Under the pieces are notes generated by a model. It was not told where the DNA came from and made no database searches. It saw nothing but the letters and a program-made list of their open reading frames with translations. Positions 7,608 through 63,422 of a stretch of DNA of 64,000 nt are shown here, in pieces; within the stretch, counting starts at the first letter, position 1, and each line of letters begins with the position of its first letter. A program made the translations under genes and the position numbers. This DNA comes from Eledone cirrhosa (Eukaryota), in the NCBI GenBank assembly GCA_964016885.1, contig OZ024748.1, positions 49,972,001-50,036,000 on the forward strand, given 5' to 3'.

Positions 7608-8375
7608 GCTGGGGTTAACTTTGCCTTTCATCCTTACGGGGTCGATAAAATAAAGTACCAGTAATGTACTGGGTATTTGCTGGCCTTGTGCCTAAAGTAG
7701 AAACAATTATTTATTCGAAGTAATACAACTTATTTTACAAACGTCATAAAAAAATATATTCTGGACGCAGTCCCGCACTCCTTACTTTATTATAGTTTAG
7801 ATTATCACCCGTGTTGATAAATTATGTTGATCGTTAGGATTGGCAGAATCGGTAGAGTGTCGGACCCCACACTTTGTGGCATAGAGTTACGGTCCTTTAC
7901 ATTCTGAGTTCAAATCCCGTCGAGTTTAGCCTTGCCTTTCATCATTCCGTTGTCGATAAAATAAAGTACCAGTAATGAACTGTGGTCAATTTAATCGACT
8001 TTCCCCAACCATAAAATTGTTGACCTTTTGCCGATAGTAGAAATTATTATTAGAGGCAATCCCGCCAAGGTTAGCTTTGCCTTTCATCCTTAAGGGTTCG
8101 GTAAAATAAAGCACCAGTAATGCACTGGGGTCGATTTAATCGAAATATATTGCTGGCCATAGTAGAAATAATTATTATTAGAGGTCTGTGGATTGGCAGT
8201 ATCGGAAGAGGGTCGGACGCCATGCTTTGCAGCAAAGAGTTACGACCCTTTATGGTCTGAATTCAAATCCCACCGAGGTTAACTTTGCCTTTCATCATTA
8301 CGGGGTCGATAAAATAAAGTACCAGTAATGTACTGGGTAATTGCTGGCCTTGTACCAAAAGTAGAACAAATTATT
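7608..8375 (+). mobile_element. Cluster of four SINE family 1 copies
   Basis: Copies at about 7608-7712, 7838-8052, 8058-8180 and 8183-8375. The last three are head-to-tail, joined through ATTATTAGAGG. Confidence 0.85.
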
Positions 8376-9649
8376 ATCTTCATATACAGATGCATACACA
8401 CACCCACCCACACACACCCACATACAAACACGTGTCTTTTGGACACACACGTGTCTTTTGCACACACACATGACCTCATATAGGTAAGTACATGAAATCA
8501 CGCTTCATTTTGTACCAATACACATTAACCTAAACATATTGTACTCCACCGCGCATACATACATATATACATACATACATACATATATACATACATGCAT
8601 TCATACATACATACATACTTACATACTTACATACATACACACACACATACATATATACATGCATACACATAAATACATACATACATACAAACACACATAA
8701 TACATATATACATAAACACGCACACACAAAAAATACATACATACAAACACACATACATACATACATATATACATACATACATACAGATACACATACATAC
8801 TTGCATACATACATACATGCATACATACATATACACATATATACATATCTGCATACATACATATATATGCATACATACCTATGTGCAGAAGCTTTTACGT
8901 GAAAGCTCAGCGCATATACAATTATACATACATGCGCTAATGCATGGCACAATATACTGGTCAGGAATGTCCTATACAAATGACTGGACCTGTAATCTAG
9001 CAAATCGATGACCTAAACCATGGACGAAAATGTCAAAGGTTGACCTCCGAATGTCATCAGAATTGATAAATTTAGTTATCCTTCCTGCTCTCTCCCCCAA
9101 TACACAATCTATTGAACGTGGAAGCTAATGAAATGATGGATATGACAAATATATACCATTTCTTCTTCAGATATATGGACAAAACCTTATGTGTGCACAC
9201 ATGACATGTTTCTTATACGTGCAGATATTGTATTGGTGCTTTTAGTGATGTTGATGCTGCTGTTTTTTGGTGGGGAGCTATCTAGTGATGATTGTGTTGG
9301 TATTGTTTCTGTTGTTATTGCTCTTTTGTTTTTGTTGTTGTTGTTGGTATTGTTTTTGCTGTTTAGACCTAAGTCCGATATTATTGAGCAAATCTATCAT
9401 GAAACACATTCTAAACCTTACCATTATGATTTTTGTTTGCAAGCATGTCCATTTAAAAAAAAATATTCTGAGGAGCGAAATGAAGGACATTTAGCTGCTG
9501 TTATTTGTCGATAGTCTGGTATAAGGGTTATTGTTTAGCAGAATATTTAGACATTATTTCCTGTAGTTTTACCTAAATTATTATCTCTATCGAAACAATA
9601 CAATGAGGGGAGAACTATCTGGTCACTTGACATTTTAGACATAGAATCT

Positions 9650-11510
9650 GGATGGTGGTGATCTGGGTGTTAGTGTTGATGCTGATGGTATTGATGATGT
9701 TGGTGGTGCTGATGGTGGTGTTGGTGTTGGTGTTGATTGTGTTGTTAGTGTTGGTGTTGATGGTGTTGATAGTGTTGATGTTGGTGCTGGTGGTGATGGT
9801 GTTGTTAGTGTTAGTGTTAGTGTTAGTGTTAGTGTTGGTGTTGATGGTGTTGATAGTGTTGATGTTGGTGCTGGTGATGATGGTGTTGTTGGTGTTAGTG
9901 TTAGTGTTAGTGTTAGTGTTGATGGTGTTGTTAGTGTTAGTGTTGGTGTTGATGGTGTTGATAGTGTTGATGTTGGTGCTGGTGGTGATGGTGTTGTTAG
10001 TGTTAGTGTTAGTGTTAGTATTAGTGTTGGTGTTGATGGTGTTGATAGTGTTGATGTTGGTGCTGGTGATGATGGTGTTGTTGGTGTTAGTGTTAGTGTT
10101 AGTGTTGATGGTGTTGTTAGTGTTAGTGTTGGTGTTGATGGTGTTGATAGTGTTGATGTTGGTGCTGGTGGTGATGGTGTTGTTAGTGTTAGTGTTAGTG
10201 TTGATGGTGTTGTTAGTGTTAGTGTTGATGTCGGCGCTGGTGATGATGGTGTTGTTAGTGTTGGTGATGATGTTGTTGATGGTGTTGTTAGTGTTGGTGA
10301 TGGTGTTAGTGTTGATGGTGTTGTTAGTGTTGGTGATGATGTTGTTGATGGTGTTGTTAGTGTTAGTGTTAGTGCTGGTGTTGGTATTGATGTAGCTGTT
10401 AGTGTTAGTGTTGGTGTTGTTGATATTGTTAGTGTTATTGCTGGTGTTGATGTTGCTGTTAGTGTTGGTGTTGTTGTTAGTGTTAGTGTTAGTGCTGGTG
10501 TTGGTGTTGATGTTGCTGTTAGTATTGGTGTTGTTGATATTGTTAGTGTTAGTGCTGGTGTTGGTGTTGATGTTGCTGTTAGTGTTGGTGTTGTTGTTGT
10601 TGTTAGTGTTAGTGTTAGTGCTGGTGTTGGTGTTGATGTTGCTGTTAGTGTTGGTGTTGTTGATATTGTTAGTGTTAGTGCTGGTGTTGGTGTTGATGTT
10701 GCTGTTAGTGTTGGTGTTGGTGTTGTTGTTAGTGTTAGTGTTAGTGCTGGTGTTGGTGTTGATGTTGCTGTTAGTGTTGGTGTTGTTGATATTGTTAGTG
10801 TTAGTGCTGGTGTTGGTGTTGATGTTGCTGTTAGTGTTGGTGTTGGTGTTGTTGTTAGTGTTAGTGCTGGTGTTGGTGTTGATGTTGCTGTTAGTGTTGG
10901 TGTTGTTGATATTGTTAGTGTTAGTGCTGGTGTTGGTGTTGATGTTGCTGTTAGTGTTGGTGTTGGTGTTGTTGTTAGTGTTGGTGTTGGTGTTGTTGAT
11001 ATTGTTAGTGTTAGTGTTGGTGTTGATGTTGCTGTTAGTGTTGGTGTTGGTGCTGGTGATATTGTTAGTGTTGGTATTGCTGGTGATTCTGTTGATGTAG
11101 GTGGTGTTGGTGTTGATGTAGTTAGATTTGGTGGGGATGGTGTTGTTGGTGTTGGTATTGGTGGTGAGAGTGTTCGGGTTGGTGTTGTTAGCTTCGTTAT
11201 TGATGTTGATGGTGTTAGTGTTGTTGGTGTTGATGATGTTAGCGTTCGTGTTAGTATTGATATTGTTAGTGTTAATGGTATTGGTGTTGATGGTGTTGGT
11301 GTTGATATTGTTAGTGTTGGTGGTATTTGTGTTGATGGTGTTGGTGTTGATATTGTTAGTGTTAATGGTGTTGGTGTTGATGGTGTTGGTGTTGATATTG
11401 TTAGTGTTAATGGTGTTGGTGTTGATGGTGTTGGTGTTGATATTGTTAGTGTTGGTGGTGTTGGTATTGATGGTGTTGATGTTGACGTTATTGGTGTTGA
11501 TATCAGTGGT
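9650..11510. repeat. Compound triplet-phased satellite (GTT/GGT/AGT/GAT) with higher-order repeats
   Basis: Continuous triplet register. Higher-order blocks of about 84+108 bp (9761-10200) and about 60-66 bp (10400-11050). Produces the 641-aa N/T/I ORF on the minus strand. Confidence 0.9.
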
Positions 11511-34634: not shown

Positions 34635-34670
<36 letters not shown>

Positions 34671-34675
<5 letters not shown>

Positions 34676-35076
34676 TAATATATCTACCAACATATGTATA
34701 CAGATGCATACCTATGCTAGCAGATATATATGTTTTGTCTTTGTAACTTTGTGGTTCTATGCAGGGGAATGCAGAACAATTATATGAAAGACGTAAATAA
34801 GAAAGTTATGAAAATTGACTTACTTACTAAAATTTCACTCCAACTAATTAGTTTCTGTAAGGGGATAAATATAGTTACGTAATAACTATAGAGAAGCCTT
34901 ACGTCATCAGGGAGTCTATTCTCAGCTAAGTTTCTAGGCAATGCGGGGACACTGGGAACTTATATAAAAATAATTCAGTGGATGGAAAAAAGTGAGTGGG
35001 GCTAGATTCCAAGCCATTTTAGTTGGAGTGAAATTTTAGTAAGTAAGTCAATTCTCATAACTTTCTTATTTACGTC

Positions 35077-35082
<6 letters not shown>
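34671..35082 (-). mobile_element. HHR element family B with inverted terminal arm
   Basis: About 34783-34846 is inverted at about 35020-35083. 34671-34785 is homologous to the reverse complement of 54790-54901. Confidence 0.72.
34837..34915 (-). ncRNA. Hammerhead ribozyme with extended stem II, family B
   Basis: actcc CTGATGA c gtaagg cttctc tatagtta ttacg taactata tttatcc ccttac a GAAA ctaattag TT ggagt. Confidence 0.75.
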
Positions 35083-49930: not shown

Positions 49931-50440
49931 TCTCAACTAGATATATACATTTATGCTCTGGGCTTAATGTTCATTGTTGACTAACTTAATTAAGATACGT
50001 TATATATATATGGATTTATCCTAACCAACCTGCCTTCAGTGAGACATTGGTTTTTTCGATCATCCTCTTTATGCAATAGATTAGCTATTGTACAGTGAGA
50101 TATATAGTACGACCTTAAAAACTTACTGATGAATGATGTTGCCTGGTCTTGATGATTGGTGATTGAACCTAATCATTATATCGATTATAGACGCCATATT
50201 CTGAAATTGATCATGAAACTGCCGTTTAAGTAAACTTTAGACAATCTTGACTTGATTCTTTCTGTCAGTGAGTATATTTATTATTATCATTATATGTATG
50301 TACATGATACTAGTTGTTTCTCAATTTGATATATGAAAGAGACCTTTTTTTATATCGTTTATACTTGTAAATATATATATATATATATATATTAAGAGAG
50401 TAAAACAAAGAAGCCTTCAATACATCAAAAGTCTTTATTA

Positions 50441-50478
50441 GCCGACAATGTTTCGTCCTATTAAGGACTCATCAGGGC
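50441..50478 (-). ncRNA. Minimal Type I hammerhead ribozyme (canonical core)
   Basis: Minus strand gcc CTGATGA gtcct taat aggac GAAA catt GTC ggc then AATAAA: perfect core, stem II GTCCT/AGGAC, GUC cleavage triplet, stem I gcc/ggc. Confidence 0.85.
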
Positions 50479-50619
50479 AATTCAAACAACAAGAAGTAAT
50501 AACGGCAGATACAAGCCAGAAGCTTTTGGCTCTGTTTAACTACATTGAGCTATACCTTTTACTGCCATTTCTATAATACGAAGAGAGTGTTTAACCCCAA
50601 CACGCTCCAGTATTTTAAC

Positions 50620-52590: not shown

Positions 52591-52809
52591 TAATGAAATG
52601 ACAGGAGGCTGGATTTGTGTAAATCCTTGAAAGGTTTTACACAAATCCAGCCTCCTGTCATTTCATTATAATATTTAACTCCGTAATAGCACCACCAACT
52701 ACAAAAACAAAGACGGTTGAACTGCTTTACGTTGAGTACTCTCTATATTATTGCATTACGATTGACCATACGGAATAGACCAGCTCTATACAGTGGTGAA
52801 CCTCAAACC

Positions 52810-53441: not shown

Positions 53442-53628
53442 CGAAAGAGTTGTGGTAAGGAACCAGATGGACCATAACGCACCAGAGTACTCAATAATTA
53501 GGGAAGTAGAGTGAGTAACAGGAAAATGTATGAACCCGACGGCAGAGCTGAAGCCGTTTCGGCGGCTATTTTAGTCCAGAAATAGCCGTCGAAACGGCTT
53601 GAGCTCTGCCGTCGGGGTCATACATTTT

Positions 53629-53681
<53 letters not shown>

Positions 53682-53941: not shown

Positions 53942-54652
53942 CGTATATGTACATACACTTATATATTATATATATTTGAGCGTGTGCGTAGAGAGAGAGG
54001 GGGGTGGAGAGAGAGAGAGAGAGAGAGGGAGAAAGAGAGAAAGAGAGAAAGAGAGAAAGAGAGAAAGAGTGAAATAGAGAAATATATCCCTGTTAATGAA
54101 AGTTATTTTAAATTAATTGCCAGCTATTCTTTATTATTTGACTCTATTGAATCATATTCTTTCATTCTTTCATTCATATTTTTTATATTTTTTACTCATT
54201 AAACATTTATTTCACTCGATGTTTCATTTTGTTTTTTACTTATACAAAACATTTCCTTTTCTTCCTTTTCTTTCAGTTTTTCTCATTCTTCCGTCTCTTT
54301 GTCTCCTTCCTCCTTTGTATATTACCTCCCCTTCTTCACCTTTTGTTTGTCTTAGTTCATACATTTTGTTTCCAGCTCATGTAACGTTTCCCAGCACAGT
54401 TATAAATGATGTTTCTTGCTCTGTATAATATATACTTACTTTCTTTAAACAATCGCGATTCCTTCTTTATTTATCAGTCTATTTATCTGTTTGTCCGTCT
54501 GTTTTTCATATCCAACAATATCTCTCTATTTCCCTTCCCATCACTCACCTTATCACCCCTCTCTCCCCTTATACACATACACCTTTGCATATATATATGT
54601 GTGTATGTCGTATCGTTGCTTTTCTTCTGTGCCTTTTCCTACATTAAAATAT

Positions 54653-54686
<34 letters not shown>

Positions 54687-54687
<1 letters not shown>

Positions 54688-55301
54688 TTCGGAAAGTATA
54701 TTTATTCCATTTCAGAAACTAATTAGTTGGGATTGAAATTTTAGTAAGTAAGTTAATTTTATAATTTTCTTATTTTACGTCTCTCATATTATTGTTCTGC
54801 AACCCCATGCATTGAACCACAAAGTTACTAAGACAAAACCTATATATTTGCTAGCATTGATATGCATCTGTATGTATATATATGTTACTAGATATTAATT
54901 CTTTATAATTATCTCCAAATTATTTGTCGAGCAATATTGGCCAAGACTGCTGCTATGGTAGCAGGCAGGCCGCTGTCTTATTAACAAACCACTTTCCACT
55001 GATTGACCTCGATGTCACGTGATTGATTCTTTTTGAATTTGCTACCGACGCAGAGGCAGTGATTTTCTCAATGGCTAGGAATTCAGTCCACGCTTTGCTA
55101 TTTTCTATCCACTGAATTATTTTTGTATAAGTTTCCAGAGTCCACGCTTTGCCTGGATACTTAGTTGAGAATAGTCTTCCCTGACGACGAAATGCTTCTC
55201 AATATTTTCTTCGGAAAGTATATTTATTCCATTTCAGAAACTAATTAGTTGGGAGTGAAATTTTAGTAAGTAAGTTAATTTTATAATTTTCTTATTTTAC
55301 G

Positions 55302-55311
<10 letters not shown>
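54687..55311 (+). mobile_element. HHR element family B, 522-bp monomer with 103-bp terminal direct repeats
   Basis: 54687-54789 is repeated at 55209-55311 (one visible mismatch). (TA)n on both sides. Homologous to the inverted-arm copy at 34671-35082. Confidence 0.75.
55176..55255 (+). ncRNA. Hammerhead ribozyme with extended stem II, family B
   Basis: cttcc CTGACGA c gaaatg ..atattttc ttcg gaaagtat.. catttc a GAAA ctaattag TT gggag. Stems covary with the 34837 copy. Confidence 0.75.
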
Positions 55312-55345
<34 letters not shown>

Positions 55346-55584
55346 CTCCCTTTTTTCACACATATATATATATATATATATATATGTGAAAAGAGGGAGA
55401 AAAAGACGATTATTAGGAAGAAAAATATTTTTTTCCCTTTTTATTTCTTTCTCTCTTTTTTTCTGAGTTAGAAAATGATTAAAACGAAATATTTTACTTT
55501 GTGTGAAGTGTTAAGGTATTAGTTGATTTATTTATTAATTAACAATGGCATTTATTTATTTATTTATATATTTAATAATTGTCT

Positions 55585-55619
55585 ATTACCGGTTTCAGCA
55601 TTTTTATGCATTATCAAAT
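55585..55619 (-). ncRNA. Hammerhead-like motif, U3-A8 variant
   Basis: at TTGATAA t gcat aaaa atgc t GAAA ccgg TA at. Stem I is weak. Confidence 0.6.
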
Positions 55620-56103
55620 GATAATATATATATAATCAGAATAAATGAAGGAGAAGGCAATAGATTTAAAAACAAACTTTACATCTTACACAGTGTGTCA
55701 TCTATACATCTATACCAACATTTTTAATTTACAAATTATACCTATTCGAATTTATCGTCCTAATTTATGCAATCGGACGGCTATTTGCCTCTCCTTTTAA
55801 GGAATTTTTAGCCTGGAAAAAATAAGTTGGACTAACTTCCAGTAACATCAATATAAACGATCCTTTCTTCTCTCAAGATTCCATACAAATATCACTAATA
55901 ACAATGTATATACGTCACACATATATGTGTGAACTGTTATTCGAGATTGTACAAATGAAAATGTTTTTCAATTATTTACTTATTTATTTGCATATTCACC
56001 CATAAGTTTAAAAAATCCCTAATACATTTCCACTATCCAGAGAATATCCAACTGATAAGGTATGATTTTCCTGGGTATGTCTCTATTTATAAAACAAACT
56101 TTG

Positions 56104-56166
56104 TATTTTATCTGAAGAAAGCATACCAAAGTCTTTTGGTACCCTTGAAATATATATAATAAAATA
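56104..56166 (+). ncRNA. Type I hammerhead ribozyme, family A
   Basis: tattttat CTGAAGA aagcataccaaa gtct tttggtaccctt GAAA tatata TA ataaaata. 8-bp perfect stem I. Confidence 0.82.
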
Positions 56167-56300
56167 AATATGGTTTTATAAATATAGTTTCCATTTATTT
56201 AATATCATTGAATATTTACTCCAGGAAACTGTTGAGTGCTCTAAATCAGTTATAAACATTTATATTTGTCGGATTTCCAACAAATTAAATGCCCCTTCTA

Positions 56301-58098: not shown

Positions 58099-59586
58099 TT
58101 GTGTAACTTGACCCCCCGTTTGGGCCTTCAGGTGGTGGGTCAACTCATTTTTGCCCCTACAGGGGCGAAATATTTGTTTGAAAAACTTTTCTGTCCAAAC
58201 AACACAAATGACACCAAACAGTTCAATGACAACAAAAATAACAACAACAACACCAATAATGATGATAAAAACAACAATGACAACAACAACAAAGAAAAAA
58301 ATAAAGACAACACCAATAACACCAGCATCAAAGACAACAACAACACCAACACCAACACCAAGGAAAATACAAATAATATCAACATCAGTGACAACAAGAA
58401 TAACAACAATAATGACAACACCACCAACACGGGTAATTCCACAAAGAAACCAAAAATCTCCTTTGCACAGACAGTTCAGAAAAAGGAGGACTGACATATC
58501 TCGACATAACAAATGCCGAATAACTTTTAAAGGAGATATGTCACTTTCTAAAAAAATGGTGCTTTCAGCATCAATTCTCCGGTAGAAATTCGCAAGGAAA
58601 CTGCTCTCAAAACGATAGTTTTTAGGACAGTTTCCAATTCTACCTGAAAACCAGTCCAATTGTCACAGAAAGAAATTGATTTGGTTTTCAAAAATTCAAT
58701 GAATCATATTTCATTCATTCAAAGAAGCATACTCTTTGGGAGTATTTCGGTACTCATGAAGGATCAATTGACGGCCCAAAATTACTCTGTGTCGCCAATT
58801 GTATCCAACCTGCATAACTTTTTCCCTACATACATGGGAAACAGGACACAAAAGATTAAAATCACGAGTGTCACAACATAGGTGAACATATGGTGGATAC
58901 TGTGCGGCTTCATCAATTTTGATGAAGACGGAATACTGTCAGAAGGAAAGTCCCCCAGAGATGTATTCAATGGGACTAGCGTTGAAGTTCTGGTGCAAAT
59001 GAACCCAGAGCGAATAGCTATGAACCCACAACGTGTACTCCTGGACGGACTCACCTACATAAACTTTTCGGTTGAGGGTAGGCGGCCTTCATGTTACCAT
59101 TGCTTTAGCAGGGGTCACCTGAGGGCTTCCTGTCCTAAATTAATGAGTAAAAAAAAGGCTCTTCTGCCGACACCCATCAAAACAATACAACCACCAACAC
59201 CACCACCACCACAACAACAACACCAACACACAAAAATAACCACAACAAACACAGTCCCACCCAACCCCACTCCACCTAAAACCACTGCAAAATCACATAC
59301 AGACACAACATCTCCCCAAGACATACCCCTCCCCAATCACATGGACGATACAACAGTGAAGACGAGGGAGAACCCCATCGTTCGAAAAGAAAGAAAAGAC
59401 ATCACAAAAGCAAAAAACCAGCAAACACTACCACAGACATACAACCACCAACACAAACAACAAAAACATCACAAAGAAAACCCCTACCTCCTGAAAACAA
59501 AATACCTACAACAAAACGAAAGCACACACAAGAACTACAGACAAAAACAAACACAACACAAGAAAATTACACTTACACTTACATAA
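58099..59586 (+). pseudogene. Tx1 ORF1 (gag-like) remnant, interrupted by stops and frameshifts
   Basis: Zinc knuckle CYHCFSRGHLRASC (CX2CX4HX4C) at 59092-59133, Asn/Thr-rich N-terminal region and Pro/Thr-rich C-terminal tail. Split over several ORF-track pieces (stops at 58494, 58881 etc.). Confidence 0.75.
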
Positions 59587-59986
59587 ACACTGAAAACAAA
59601 ACACTAATGGAGACCATCACGAACGACCCTTCGGTGAAAACCGAAGGGAAAACTTTCGCCCACTCTATTAAAAATAACAAAAAACTGAACCTAAAACTGA
59701 TTAGCGTCCTTATACAAACTTATAGGTCCCTAAAAGAAACATTTGAAAAGGATGAGGGGAATTCCTGCGTGAAACCACTTAACTGCGTCCTTCTCAAATG
59801 TCTCCCCACCCCAGACACCCCCATCCCACCAGATCCCACCTCACGAAACATCTCCGTCCCCACCCCGCCGGAAACCACCACCCACCCAGACAACCCCTCC
59901 AACACCCCATGGAAATCGTGCAGCCTTGTCCCCAGGAGACGAAGGGTGAGTGATCTCTTTTCCTCTTTTAACTTTTCAGCACCAAC

Positions 59987-62900
59987 ATGGCCAATATAAG
60001 AGTTGGATGTGTAAACGTACGCGGCCTGGGGATGCCCTGGAAACAGGGCAAACTCTTAAACGACCTCAGGTCGCACAGTATGGATGTCGTAGCCATTTGC
60101 GAGTCCAGGGTCCACAGCGAGCGACAGCTGGCCCCCATCTTCGATGACTTTGAGATCTACGCATCTCTCTGTCAACCGGGTTGTGGGGGCGGAGTTGACG
60201 TTTTGCTGCGGAAACACCTGGGCATCGTAACACAGACGGTACATCTGGACCCGGAGGGTCGACTGGTGGTCCTAGACATTGGCGGTAGTGAAATTGGAGC
60301 CTTCAGGCTGGTGGCTGCATATGCCCCATCCGGGACACCGCGGCCAGACTTCTTCAAACGTCTAGAGTCTTTTCTGGGAACGTCCCGCTTCTTGATTTTA
60401 GTGGGGGACTGGAATGGAATCCTAGATGCACGTTGGGACTATGTGGGAGCATGTCCCGATAAAGGGGGGTGTAAGAGCCTCAAACAGTTAATCGACCGAT
60501 TTGACCTAGCCGATAGATATCGACTAGATTTTTCGACTGTGCCACTGTGGACGTGGACTAATCTCAGCGGAACATCTAGATCGTACCTAGATAGGGTTCT
60601 AGTTAGAAATAAGGATAGGGGCATGTTAAGCTGTCCACAAATGTTCATGGTTGCCTATTCAGATCACAAACTAGTGACCTGCATGGCCAACCTTGATAGA
60701 ACCCATAGACAAGGACCCGGCTACTGGAAGCTGAACTTGTCGTTACCGACAAGCAAAGCCTACAGTAGACGGATTAGCACTTTAGTTAAACAGCACTTGA
60801 CAGGGGCCATTGTCAACAACATATGGTGGTACTCTCTCAAGAGGGCAGTTAGATTAGACTCGTTAGTTTTTAGTAAAGAATTAGCGTTAGATAGAAATAG
60901 AACCGAGAAGGAACTGGTAGATAAAGTAGAAGAGGCAATTAGAAGTGGCAACGTAGCCAGCGTGCTAGCAACGAGAACGGCCTTGGACCAGTTGTTCGAC
61001 GCAAAGCACGAGGGCTGCGTTGTCAGAAGCAAAATACGTGCTCTGGGAAACGAGGGAGCTAAAGCTGTTAGCTGGGCCCGAGTGACGGAGGCAAAAAGTG
61101 GCAACAAGTCCACGATTCGGTCTTTGAAGGACCAAAACGGACGCGTGATACGTGAGCCGAAGCAGATGTGTGCGGCCTTTCAGCGGCACTTTGCTCAACT
61201 GTTCTGGCGGGGCGGCGCGCCGGGAGAAAATATGGATTTCGGTCCATACCTCGACGGCCTACCGCGACTCTCGCACAGCGAGGCAAAGTTCTGCGAAAAG
61301 CCGATTTCAGCCGCTGAGATAGGGGACGCGCTGAGCCAATGCGGCAAACGCAAATCTCCAGGTCTCGACGGTCTACCCTACGAATTTTACGTAGCAATGC
61401 CGGACTTATTCTCCGGTTTCCTGGAAGCGGTCTACTGAACTGGCAACAGAACGGGAGAATTCCCAGTTCTGTAACCGGGGGCGTGGTCACACTAGTCAGG
61501 AAGGACGAGAATAAGGGGGATGACATCGGCAACTTCCAGCCCATAACTCTGCTAAACACAGAGTTACAGATTATGGCCAAGGTGTTGGCAAAGAGGCTGG
61601 CGCTTGTCGTCGAGAACCTGGTGGGAGAAGCGCAGACATGCGCAATCCCGACAGGTCCATACACGACAACCTCCACCTAATGCGATACATCATAGAGAAG
61701 GTAGGGTGTAAACCCGGCTTCGGTGGGGACCTGATCTACTTGGATCAGTCTAAGGCTTTCGATAGAGTTGACCATCGTTACCTGGATGCGGTGCTCGAGG
61801 CGGCAGGCTTCGGACCCGTGTTCAGGGGCTGGATTGCTGCAATGCATAACAGCAACATCTGCTCAAGGGTCAAGGTGAACGGCTACCTCTCGGAGCCATT
61901 CAATATTACGTGATCCATTCGACAGGGATGCCCTCTCTCCTCCCTTCTGTACGTACTGACTCTCGAGCCACTACTGCGGAAGTTGGAGCTATTGCAGGGA
62001 ATCCCTCTGGAACCGGAACTGCGGAAGGCGGCGTCGGCCTACGCCGACGACGTGACAGTAATTGTGTCGAGCGCCTCGCAAATCGAGGAAGTCGGTACCT
62101 TACTGAAGGAATACGAAAGTTTCACAGGAGTGAAGCTGAACCGGGACAAGTCCATCGGTTTGCAACTCGGATCGTGGAGAGGCAAACCGATGGCTTCCGA
62201 TGGCGTCGTCGGACGCTGGACGGAAGGACCGGTAAAACTGCTCGGGGTCTGGTTTGGTCCGGACCTCGAGGTGGAGAAGAACTGGAACGAAGTGACGGCC
62301 AAGGTGTTTGCACTCACCCAGAAGTGGGCCGAGTGTAAACTATCCTTGAAAGGTCGAGCGGAGGTGGCGAACACTTTTATAGCGTCCGCCATCTACTACC
62401 GCTTGACCGTTGTGCCTTGTCCAGCCAAAACGCTCGCCAAAATGGAGCGCGCGCTTTTCCAATTCCTTTGGAAGAGGCGGGCTCCTTTGGTGAGAAGATC
62501 CATCTGCTGCCAACACCCTTCTAACGGAGGGCTGGGGGTGCCATGGTTGACGATGCGCAAACACGCGCTCAGGCTGCGGCATTTCTACGTATTCTTCACC
62601 GGATAACCGGTGTGGGCCCCGTTCGTGAGGCGAGCCTTCCCACGACTCGTCTCGCTGACCGAGCTGCAGTCCTGGGTCAAGCAAACACCGAGGAAAATGG
62701 GCGACTGGCACATGGAATGTGCTCAGGCGCTCACAACCCTCTGGCAGGTTGACCCGGCGATCAGTGGAGACTCCACTTCGTCATTCTATAGAGGGTTGAT
62801 CCGCAGCAAGTGCGACGACGCGCTCGGTGAAACTCTAGGCGTAGAGGAAGATGAACTGGCCAGTCTGTTCGGTAGGACCTTCCGCCCGGGACCGATGGAC

Positions 62901-63422
62901 AACTTCCAAAAGTCCCTGGCCTGGCAGTGCTACCGAGGAGCTCTACCAGTTCGAGACAAGCTCTACAGACATGGGCGCCCGGGTAGGGACCCTGCAAAAA
63001 AGATCTGTCCGAGGTGCGTGCGTAACGAAGAAACCGTCGCGCACGCATTCATACACAGCCCGGGCGTCACTGACCTGTGGGGCTATGTAGAACGACTATT
63101 GTCGCGGGTGAGACCAATCCGGTTGACCACCGAGTCCATTGTCATGATCAAACCGCAACCCTCCTTCAAAAACGAAGGAGAGGCGGTTTTCCTTTGTGTG
63201 ATAGCTATGGCGAAAGAGGTTGTATGGTGGACAAGGTTGAAAGGGCTGAGGTCAGACACCTTTCTCTCCGGCCAACAACTGATTCTTTTTTTCAAATACC
63301 ACTTTGGAAGAAGAATCAGGATGGAGAGTGAGGTGCTGTACCCCAGCAAGTTTTATGAAAGGTGGGTGAAAGTGGCGAGAATGGCTCGAGTGAATGGGCC
63401 TTCTCTCTATATCAGCCTGTAG
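59987..63422 (+). pseudogene. Tx1 ORF2: APE endonuclease + reverse transcriptase + C-terminal zinc finger, disrupted
   Basis: APE motifs (NVRGL, AICES, YAP, GDWN, SYLDRVLV, SDH). RT motifs KSPGLDGLPYEFY, QPITLLN, LDQSKAFDRVDH, IRQGCPLS and YADD (62040-62051). CPRC..EETVAH at the C-terminus. Two frameshifts (~61430, ~61655) and two in-frame stops (TGA 61911, TAA 62604). Confidence 0.93.

What the first reader, a model, noticed from the sequence alone, without database searches (positions are those of the whole stretch)
54687..55311. 522-bp monomer with 103-bp terminal direct repeats spanning the ribozyme cleavage site: candidate circular-RNA retrozyme
Seen: 54687-54789 recurs at 55209-55311, and each repeat contains GAAA-CTAATTAG-TT-GGGA, so predicted cleavage sites are exactly 522 nt apart. 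There is no ORF, and (TA)n lies on both sides. Established: retrozymes and PLE partial tandems have this more-than-unit-length structure, and retrozyme RNAs self-cleave to monomers that circularise. Inference: this insert is a 1.2-mer cDNA copied from a ~522-nt circular or tandem template.
Basis: partly seen in the sequence, partly recalled or inferred. Interest (0 to 1): 0.72.

Follow-up and report, generated by a model that had tools for sequence, protein, structure and literature searches.

The report
Penelope-inserted retrozyme with two start hairpins
This is one cut-short copy of a 522-base non-coding repeat that carries a predicted self-cutting RNA and has spread to many sites in TA runs of this animal genome; its copies end at two fixed points, each just before a small hairpin, which suggests a Penelope-type jumping-gene enzyme copies it, likely around an RNA circle.

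Summary
The repeat is real (102 of 103 bases, 522 apart), but it is only the overlap of a 5'-truncated tandem: this copy is 1.2 units by chance and holds one complete hammerhead. It belongs to a young, non-coding family (618 exact 28-mer hits; 9,219 hammerheads of this build). Copies are not free permutations: 98 of 104 position-sampled arms end at unit position ~103 or ~221, each 6 nt before a bulged hairpin, and 54 of 55 back-to-back insertions with two regular ends pair one of each. A Hydra-clade Penelope element 650 bp away shows the same two-ended (TA)n footprint and hairpin. Hammerhead stems covary; 5' ends are enriched just after the predicted cut (18 vs 7.0). Both arms and successive passes usually share lineage alleles (18 of 24; 30 of 42), favouring one unit copied repeatedly, likely a circle; some loci show linear multimer or switched templates. 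No RNA data; no coding parent found. Verdict: a non-LTR retrozyme (non-autonomous Penelope-like element), a variant of a known kind. The scan noted this system before on other DNA of this genome.

The parts
54656..54684 (.). Left (TA)n target microsatellite (followed by CA at 54685-54686)
   Evidence: sequence
54687..55311 (+). Whole insert: 625 nt = 1.2 units of the 522-nt repeat, 5'-truncated at unit position 1, fixed 3' end at unit position 103; differs from the young-family majority at 4 positions
54687..54789 (+). 5' repeat: 3' half of the hammerhead only (GAAA 54715, predicted cut after 54728) plus 61 nt to the first fixed end
54729..55250 (+). Predicted 522-nt monomer between the two cut sites; folds at -120.1 kcal/mol, z -3.03 against 100 shuffles
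54790..54907 (+). 118-nt 'tail' between the two fixed 3' ends of the family (unit 103 and 221)
54794..54817 (+). Bulged hairpin A (GTTC-TGCA-loop-TGCA-TT-GAAC); its TTC starts 6 nt after the 103 end; likely start signal
54844..54895 (+). Long predicted hairpin inside the tail; candidate protein-binding site (inference)
54913..54931 (+). Bulged hairpin B (CTC-CAAA-loop-TTTG-TC-GAG), 6 nt after the 221 end; weak on its own (-0.2 kcal/mol) but kept across subfamilies; likely start signal
55013..55025 (+). Conserved TGTCACGTGATTG (8 of 9 aligned units); candidate internal promoter element (inference, untested)
55167..55255 (+). Complete type I hammerhead: pseudoknot strand 55167-55171, stem I 55176-55180/55251-55255, CTGACGA 55181-55187, stem II 55189-55194/55230-55235 after a C-A mismatch, pseudoknot partner 55196-55200, UUCG hairpin 55202-55221, GAAA 55237, palindromic stem III, GUU triplet, predicted cut after 55250
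55209..55311 (+). 3' repeat, ending at the fixed end CGTCTCTCATAT
55312..55343 (.). Right (TA)n target microsatellite
   Evidence: sequence
34670..35080 (-). Older subfamily member in the same window: two-armed insert with one 103-type and one 221-type end and a covarying hammerhead (34910, minus strand)
55962..56300 (+). 3' end of a Hydra-clade Penelope element (hammerhead 56112, bulged hairpin 56219): candidate class of helper, not a sequence relative of the unit

Best explanation
This is a 5'-truncated, 1.2-unit copy of a non-coding 522-nt hammerhead repeat family whose copies sit in (TA)n and end at two fixed points, likely because a Penelope-like (probably Hydra-clade) reverse transcriptase-endonuclease copies the RNA from two hairpin-marked start sites, mostly around a predicted single-unit RNA circle. 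Steps: (1, inferred) a copy with an upstream promoter and two hammerheads is transcribed; (2, predicted, with indirect support) the hammerheads cut out a 522-nt monomer, (3, inferred) which is ligated to a circle; (4, inferred from the shared footprint) the helper protein binds the tail, nicks both strands of (TA)n and primes at the TATA-like words 6 nt before hairpin A (unit 103) and hairpin B (unit 221), one site per DNA end; (5, shown as a pattern) each arm runs a variable distance, often across the cut site, and the two truncated arms are joined head to head, or only one arm is kept, as here. A minority of insertions come from linear, partly cut multimers or from template switches. This copy has one complete hammerhead and no full unit downstream of the candidate promoter, so it is likely a dead end.
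For: Dispersed young family: 38 loci scored, 96-100% identical over the query, of 2,135 candidates; 618 exact 28-mers; 9,219 hammerheads of this build. Fixed ends: 98 of 104 arms from 69 position-ordered C1 loci end at ~103 (58) or ~221 (40); 1,257 and 379 exact end-plus-(TA)n junctions. Pairing: of 59 head-to-head inserts in 116 loci, 54 pair 103 with 221, 1 is 221/221, none 103/103, 4 have an irregular end; 12 of 12 in a second, partly overlapping list. Both ends lie 6 nt before a YTC-stem-loop-stem-TN-GAR hairpin, kept across subfamilies. The neighbouring Hydra family (CxCX5C, CxxC and CxH motifs) has two ends, about 54 and 146-153 nt after its cut site (21 short, 33 long, 10 other), the same hairpin after the short end and, in the one copy that runs on, after the long end. 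Hammerhead: stem II pair 2 is paired in 149 of 149 distinct motifs with four Watson-Crick types, stem I also covaries. 5' ends in the 20 nt after the cut: 18 of 174 vs 7.0 expected, scan-wide p 0.0095. One template: lineage alleles shared by both arms in 18 of 24 cases (3.0 expected) and by successive passes in 30 of 42 (5.6 expected); rare alleles present in all 3 passes 14 times against 6 times in 2 of 3, the reverse of what gene conversion should give. Read-through of the cut site is clean (1 of 69 junctions with a 3-nt duplication). The one long array found (116 full units, C9) is not the source: its common alleles are nearly absent from 62 young dispersed loci. Literature: two internal start sites bound the PLE tail (PMC11167929); retrozyme circles shown in coral, mussel, axolotl (PMC7229834).
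Against: No RNA evidence of transcription, cleavage or circles. 8 of the 18 stops at the cut site fall on the second pass, which needs a linear multimer with an uncut internal site rather than a circle. L016 and L018 carry alleles shared by the two arms in one unit only, L129 switches haplotype between units, L154 and L023 differ in their 5'-most unit. Some 3-of-3 alleles are in thinly sampled older subfamilies (L049, L055) and may not be private. In vitro, the anole element used uncut RNA and did not need its hammerhead (PMC11167929). No coding element shares the unit's sequence: none among 50 GIY-YIG loci apart from separate insertions or 50 Hydra loci, so the helper is assigned by footprint only. 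The triplet is GUU and stem III is minimal, so cleavage may be slow (recalled knowledge). The pseudoknot rests on near-invariance and one compensatory change in 4 of 149 motifs; own versus cross-family pairing barely differs (78% vs 72%). The hairpin pattern was defined after a lead from earlier notes and matches 16 places in the window.
Confidence: 0.62

Rival explanations
1. Same family and same Penelope-type insertion, but the template is a linear read-through multimer from tandem source copies; the hammerhead cuts only sometimes and no circle is needed.
For: Second-pass stops at the cut site (8 of 43 passes); unit-specific alleles shared by both arms in L016 and L018 and a haplotype switch in L129; uncut RNA was the main substrate in vitro for the anole element (PMC11167929); clean junctions fit uncut RNA as well.
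Against: Rare alleles are more often in all passes than in some (14 vs 6); truncation shortens every generation (median arm 431 nt, 27 of 98 pass two cut sites) and the only long array examined is not the donor. Other arrays were not enumerated.
Confidence: 0.25
2. The template is a cut but unligated monomer whose ends are held together by hammerhead stem I; the enzyme jumps the nick on most passes and falls off on some.
For: Would explain both homogeneous units and stops at the cut site on first and second passes (10 of 88, 8 of 43).
Against: Jumps usually leave added or lost bases (recalled from R2); only 1 of 69 young junctions is altered.
Confidence: 0.09
3. The 103-bp repeat is a local tandem duplication, a satellite fragment, or the end of a longer coding Penelope element.
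For: A 61-kb satellite of the unit exists on C9; most hammerhead stubs in this genome may be ends of coding elements.
Against: Many unlinked loci repeat the same 522-nt period with no ORF; no coding sequence fused upstream; the C9 array itself ends at the regular 103 end in (TA)n and is not the donor.
Confidence: 0.04

Closest known systems
Metazoan non-LTR retrozymes (Cervera and de la Pena 2020, PMC7229834, passages read; Li, Clavereau and Pollet, bioRxiv 10.64898/2026.07.22.740005, parts 1-3 of 5 read)
   Same: Non-coding, AT-rich tandem units with one type I hammerhead each, from partial copies to large arrays; proposed to be mobilised by Penelope-like elements through circles.
   Different: 522 nt is above the 170-400 nt of the first paper though inside the 51-972 of the second; hammerhead has a long stem II with an inner hairpin, a likely pseudoknot and GUU; fixed paired ends and start hairpins are not described in the parts read; RNA untested here.
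Endonuclease-positive Penelope-like elements, Hydra clade (Craig et al. 2021, PMC8557442, passages and section 11 read; Arkhipova et al. 2013, PMC3846280, passages read)
   Same: Partial tandems, 5' truncation, inverted truncated partner copy, tail at one end only, (TA)n target, hammerhead in the repeat.
   Different: No ORF; tail is 118 nt rather than 30-40 (the local Hydra family has about 95); no sequence homology to any coding family sampled.
Poseidon element of the green anole in vitro (Frangieh et al. 2024, PMC11167929, parts 1-2 of 4 read)
   Same: Two internal start sites downstream of the hammerhead cut that bound the tail; both DNA strands nicked and extended; predicted protein dimer.
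   Different: There the start is in an AC-rich stem loop without homology to the target and the hammerhead is dispensable; here starts fall on TATA-like words matching the (TA)n target, 6 nt before bulged hairpins, with one site per DNA end.
Minimal PLE hammerheads (PMC4209133, part 1 of 4 read) and pseudoknotted hammerheads (PMC3088659, passages read)
   Same: [quoted passage not shown]
   Different: Stem II here is extended by an internal loop and an inner hairpin of about 8 bp; the contact would join the 5' flank to that internal loop.

Membership tests
Non-LTR retrozyme | Type I hammerhead in each unit | tested here: met
   Core and covarying stems I and II in 149 distinct motifs; no Rfam match
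Non-LTR retrozyme | Tandem organisation of a non-coding unit | tested here: met
   Arms to 3.5 units, array of 116 full units, periods 520-571 in subfamilies, no ORF
Non-LTR retrozyme | Monomer of a few hundred nt | tested here: inconclusive
   522 nt: above 170-400 (PMC7229834), inside 51-972 (Li et al. preprint)
Non-LTR retrozyme | At least two complete hammerheads in an active copy (Li et al.) | tested here: not met
   This copy has one complete and one half motif; other loci of the family have two or more
Non-LTR retrozyme | Self-cleavage of the RNA | not testable with these tools
   Indirect only: 5' ends enriched after the predicted cut, 18 vs 7.0
Non-LTR retrozyme | Expressed linear and circular monomers | not testable with these tools
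   No RNA holder listed; allele patterns favour single-unit templates
Penelope-like element (Hydra clade) | ORF with RT and C-terminal GIY-YIG endonuclease | tested here: not met
   No ORF in the unit; none fused upstream in 192 records
Penelope-like element (Hydra clade) | 5'-truncated partial tandems with inverted truncated partner | tested here: met
   59 head-to-head inserts in 116 loci
Penelope-like element (Hydra clade) | [quoted passage not shown] | tested here: met
   54 of 55 inserts with two regular ends are 103/221, 12 of 12; length 118 nt, not 30-40
Penelope-like element (Hydra clade) | Insertion into (TA)n | tested here: met
Penelope-like element (Hydra clade) | Terminal repeat homologous to that of an autonomous family | tested here: inconclusive
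   No homology in 50 GIY-YIG and 50 Hydra records, a small sample of 10,596 and 57,837 candidates; shared hairpin shape only

The most novel reading that the evidence does not exclude
A Hydra-clade Penelope protein dimer grips the 118-nt tail of one 522-nt RNA circle, uses two bulged hairpins to set one start site for each nicked strand of a (TA)n target, and runs two rolling-circle reverse transcriptions at once, so that tandems, inverted arms and the one-sided tail of Penelope elements all come from one reaction that this retrozyme parasitises with nothing more than the hairpins and a pseudoknotted hammerhead.
Probability: 0.4. Interest if true: 0.78.

Novelty: new variant of a known kind. 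Interest (0 to 1): 0.52.

Why it matters
How Penelope-like elements make tandem and inverted insertions with a one-sided tail is stated as unresolved in the papers read, and the link between animal retrozymes, RNA circles and Penelope enzymes is proposed there from co-occurrence and terminal-repeat similarity rather than shown. This family gives countable rules (one start site per DNA end, 6 nt before a bulged hairpin, both arms from one haplotype, some stops at the ribozyme cut) and a compact 522-nt substrate with which they can be tested in vitro. The window copy itself is an ordinary truncated member.

Tried and rejected
RNA evidence: no RNA holder listed; laying four contig sets on 54300-55700 showed the family in two organisms and loose ends in (TA)n at 54789, but no contig spanned the locus, so no empty site or circle could be judged. 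Rfam: no match to this hammerhead. C9 satellite as master source: rejected. Neptune elements with long ORFs as parent: no homology to the unit. Direct coding parent: not found. Gene conversion as the cause of shared alleles: disfavoured, since in-register arms are no more alike than out-of-register ones (2.5% vs 2.1%) and 3-of-3 exceed 2-of-3. A second pile of 5' ends at unit 494-516 (20 vs 9.4, nominal p 0.002) may be structural stalling; unexplained. Rows left out: L127 and L091 (composites of two insertions), L058 and or 41 L162; duplicates L037, L053, L153, L160; unit 505-520 in the rare-allele counts. Literature searches listed no paper on cephalopod retrozymes or on start hairpins; supplements of PMC8557442 and the preprint were not read and may bear on this. 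The genome-wide state of the second Hydra hairpin stays open (seen in one copy).

Full report
Observation. The two repeats are there: 54687-54789 and 55209-55311 match at 102 of 103 bases, 522 apart, inside (TA)n runs, with no ORF. Only the downstream copy completes a hammerhead: CTGACGA at 55181, stem II 55189-55194/55230-55235, an inner UUCG hairpin, GAAA at 55237, a palindromic stem III and a predicted cut after GUU at 55250. The upstream repeat begins in the inner hairpin and has only the 3' half. Rfam does not recognise the motif. I number the unit from window 54687; the cut is then at unit 42/43.

Family. The 625-nt query found 2,135 candidates in the 3.0-Gb genome, of which 38 were scored, 96-100% identical over the query. 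An exact 28-mer occurs 618 times and a pattern for the whole long hammerhead 9,219 times; subfamily periods run from 520 to 571 nt. The host looks like a cephalopod; that comes from earlier notes and the repeat landscape and was not tested. One satellite of 116 full units spans about 61 kb of C9 and ends at a regular family end in (TA)n.

Ends. I mapped 189 arms in 116 loci (28, 19, 69 position-ordered loci on C1; duplicates dropped) onto the circular unit. In the position-ordered set 98 of 104 arms have their 3' end at about 103 (58; 50 exactly) or about 221 (40; 35 exactly), running into (TA)n; 5' ends vary (median arm 431 nt, longest 1,841). So copies are collinear with one circle but are not free permutations, and the 103-bp repeat is the overlap left by truncation at position 1. 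Of 59 head-to-head inserts, 54 pair a 103 end with a 221 end, one is 221/221, none is 103/103 and four have an irregular end. A second list (first 100 of 1,257 and the 64 C1 rows of 379 end junctions) gave 12 of 12 mixed pairs. This is the Penelope tail, described as an extension at one end of inverted insertions (PMC8557442, PMC3846280, passages) and shown in vitro to lie between two internal start sites (PMC11167929, parts 1-2 of 4), but here it is 118 nt.

Start hairpins. Following a lead from earlier notes, I scanned the window for YTC-stem-loop-stem-TN-GAR and found 16 hits, two of them exactly 6 nt after the two fixed ends (54795, 54913). Both are kept across subfamilies with changing loops; hairpin B is weak alone. 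Another hit, 56219, lies in a neighbouring element (55962-56300) whose sister copies carry an ORF with CxCX5C, CxxC and CxH motifs, the Hydra hallmarks. That family also has two ends, about 54 and 146-153 nt after its cut site (21 short, 33 long, 10 other), the short one just before the hairpin; in the one copy that runs past the long end a smaller version follows. Hydra coding remnants are abundant (57,837 candidates). No Hydra or Neptune locus sampled shares the unit's sequence as its own terminus, and no coding sequence is fused upstream of the unit in 192 records. The helper is therefore inferred from footprint.

Ribozyme. Among 149 distinct motifs, stem II pair 2 is paired in all with four Watson-Crick types, pair 5 in 144 with two, and stem I in 135-145 per pair with compensations (the core itself was fixed by the search pattern). 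A five-base pseudoknot GAGAA/TTCTC is present in 108, with a compensatory GAAAA/TTTTC in 4; this is weak, since cross-family pairing does nearly as well. With delayed entry to correct for how loci were selected, 18 of 174 5' ends fall in the 20 nt after the cut against 7.0 expected (10 vs 3.7 in the position-ordered set; scan-wide p 0.0095), which suggests that some templates had a cut 5' end in vivo. Most passes (117 of 135) read through, and cleanly: 1 of 69 young junctions has a 3-nt duplication.

Circle or line. In 59 young loci, lineage alleles are shared by both arms in 18 of 24 cases (3.0 expected if independent) and by successive passes in 30 of 42 (5.6 expected), leaving out the hypervariable stretch near 515. 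Rare alleles occur in all three passes 14 times (7 loci), in two of three 6 times, in one of three 128 times; conversion would give more 2-of-3 than 3-of-3, and in-register arms are not more alike than others. The C9 array is 4.3% divergent between neighbours and its common alleles are almost absent from 62 young dispersed loci (for example 96 of 111 units vs 1 locus), so it is not the donor. These points favour repeated copying of one unit, most simply a circle, as shown for other animal retrozymes (PMC7229834, passages). Against a circle-only model: 8 stops at the cut come on the second pass, L016 and L018 share unit-specific alleles across arms, L129 changes haplotype between units, and L154 and L023 differ in the 5'-most unit. 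I read this as mixed templates. No RNA data could be had.

This copy. It differs from the young majority at four positions. It has one full hammerhead and no complete unit downstream of the candidate promoter motif (55013-55025, conserved in 8 of 9 aligned units), so it likely cannot make a monomer without read-through. In a read-through RNA the complete motif could in principle cut the upstream half site through the palindromic stem III, as in dimeric hammerheads (PMC4209133, part 1); that is untested.

Comparison and verdict. It works like, and at family level meets the testable features of, animal non-LTR retrozymes; a 2026 preprint (parts 1-3 of 5 read) already argues these are non-autonomous Penelope derivatives. 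It is not a coding Penelope element. What the parts read do not describe are the strict one-site-per-end rule, the start hairpins shared with Hydra elements, the long tail and the oversized hammerhead; six literature searches listed nothing on these, and supplements were not read. Earlier notes of this scan report the same system on other DNA of this genome; I used them as leads and tested the ends, hairpins, helper class and editing claim myself. New variant of a known kind; interest 0.52.

Noticed in passing
window 50437-50481 (-): Canonical type I hammerhead (Rfam RF00163, 31.7 bits, below gathering 34) in a separate (TA)n-bounded element, with a bulged hairpin at 50530 on the opposite strand.
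   Followed up: no
window 46326 (-) and 46429 (+); 24889 (-); 32601 (+); 25333 (-); 22278 (-); 44481 (-): Further hammerhead-like cores of other families, one as an inverted pair, several with a TATATA stem III like the Hydra family.
   Followed up: no
window 3216, 4883, 22632, 22794, 22881, 24423, 32500: More CTC-stem-loop-stem-TN-GAG hairpins, most followed by TGCTT or TACTT, probably tails of other Penelope-type stubs.
   Followed up: no
G000:C9:18403198-18464770 (L061-L074): Satellite of about 118 units of this repeat with an internal inversion near its 3' end; 74 of 116 full units keep the catalytic core.
   Followed up: partly
window 55201 (unit 515): Hypervariable base next to the pseudoknot strand; all four letters occur and successive passes in one arm agree in only 5 of 18 cases, unlike other lineage markers.
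   Followed up: partly
window 53520-53631 and 52591-52669: Long near-perfect hairpins between (TA)n runs; the first recurs beside other loci and may be fold-back stubs.
   Followed up: no
window 58882-63422: Frameshifted non-LTR retrotransposon with endonuclease- and RT-like ORFs (identity by recalled motifs, not searched).
   Followed up: no
L234 (G000:C3:308728400-308738399) 8168-9653: Four tandem hammerheads of another family, about 490-510 nt apart: a second retrozyme-like family.
   Followed up: no
L127, L212: Tail-to-tail insertions of two different subfamilies meeting in one short TA run, suggesting that earlier insertion ends are reused as targets.
   Followed up: partly
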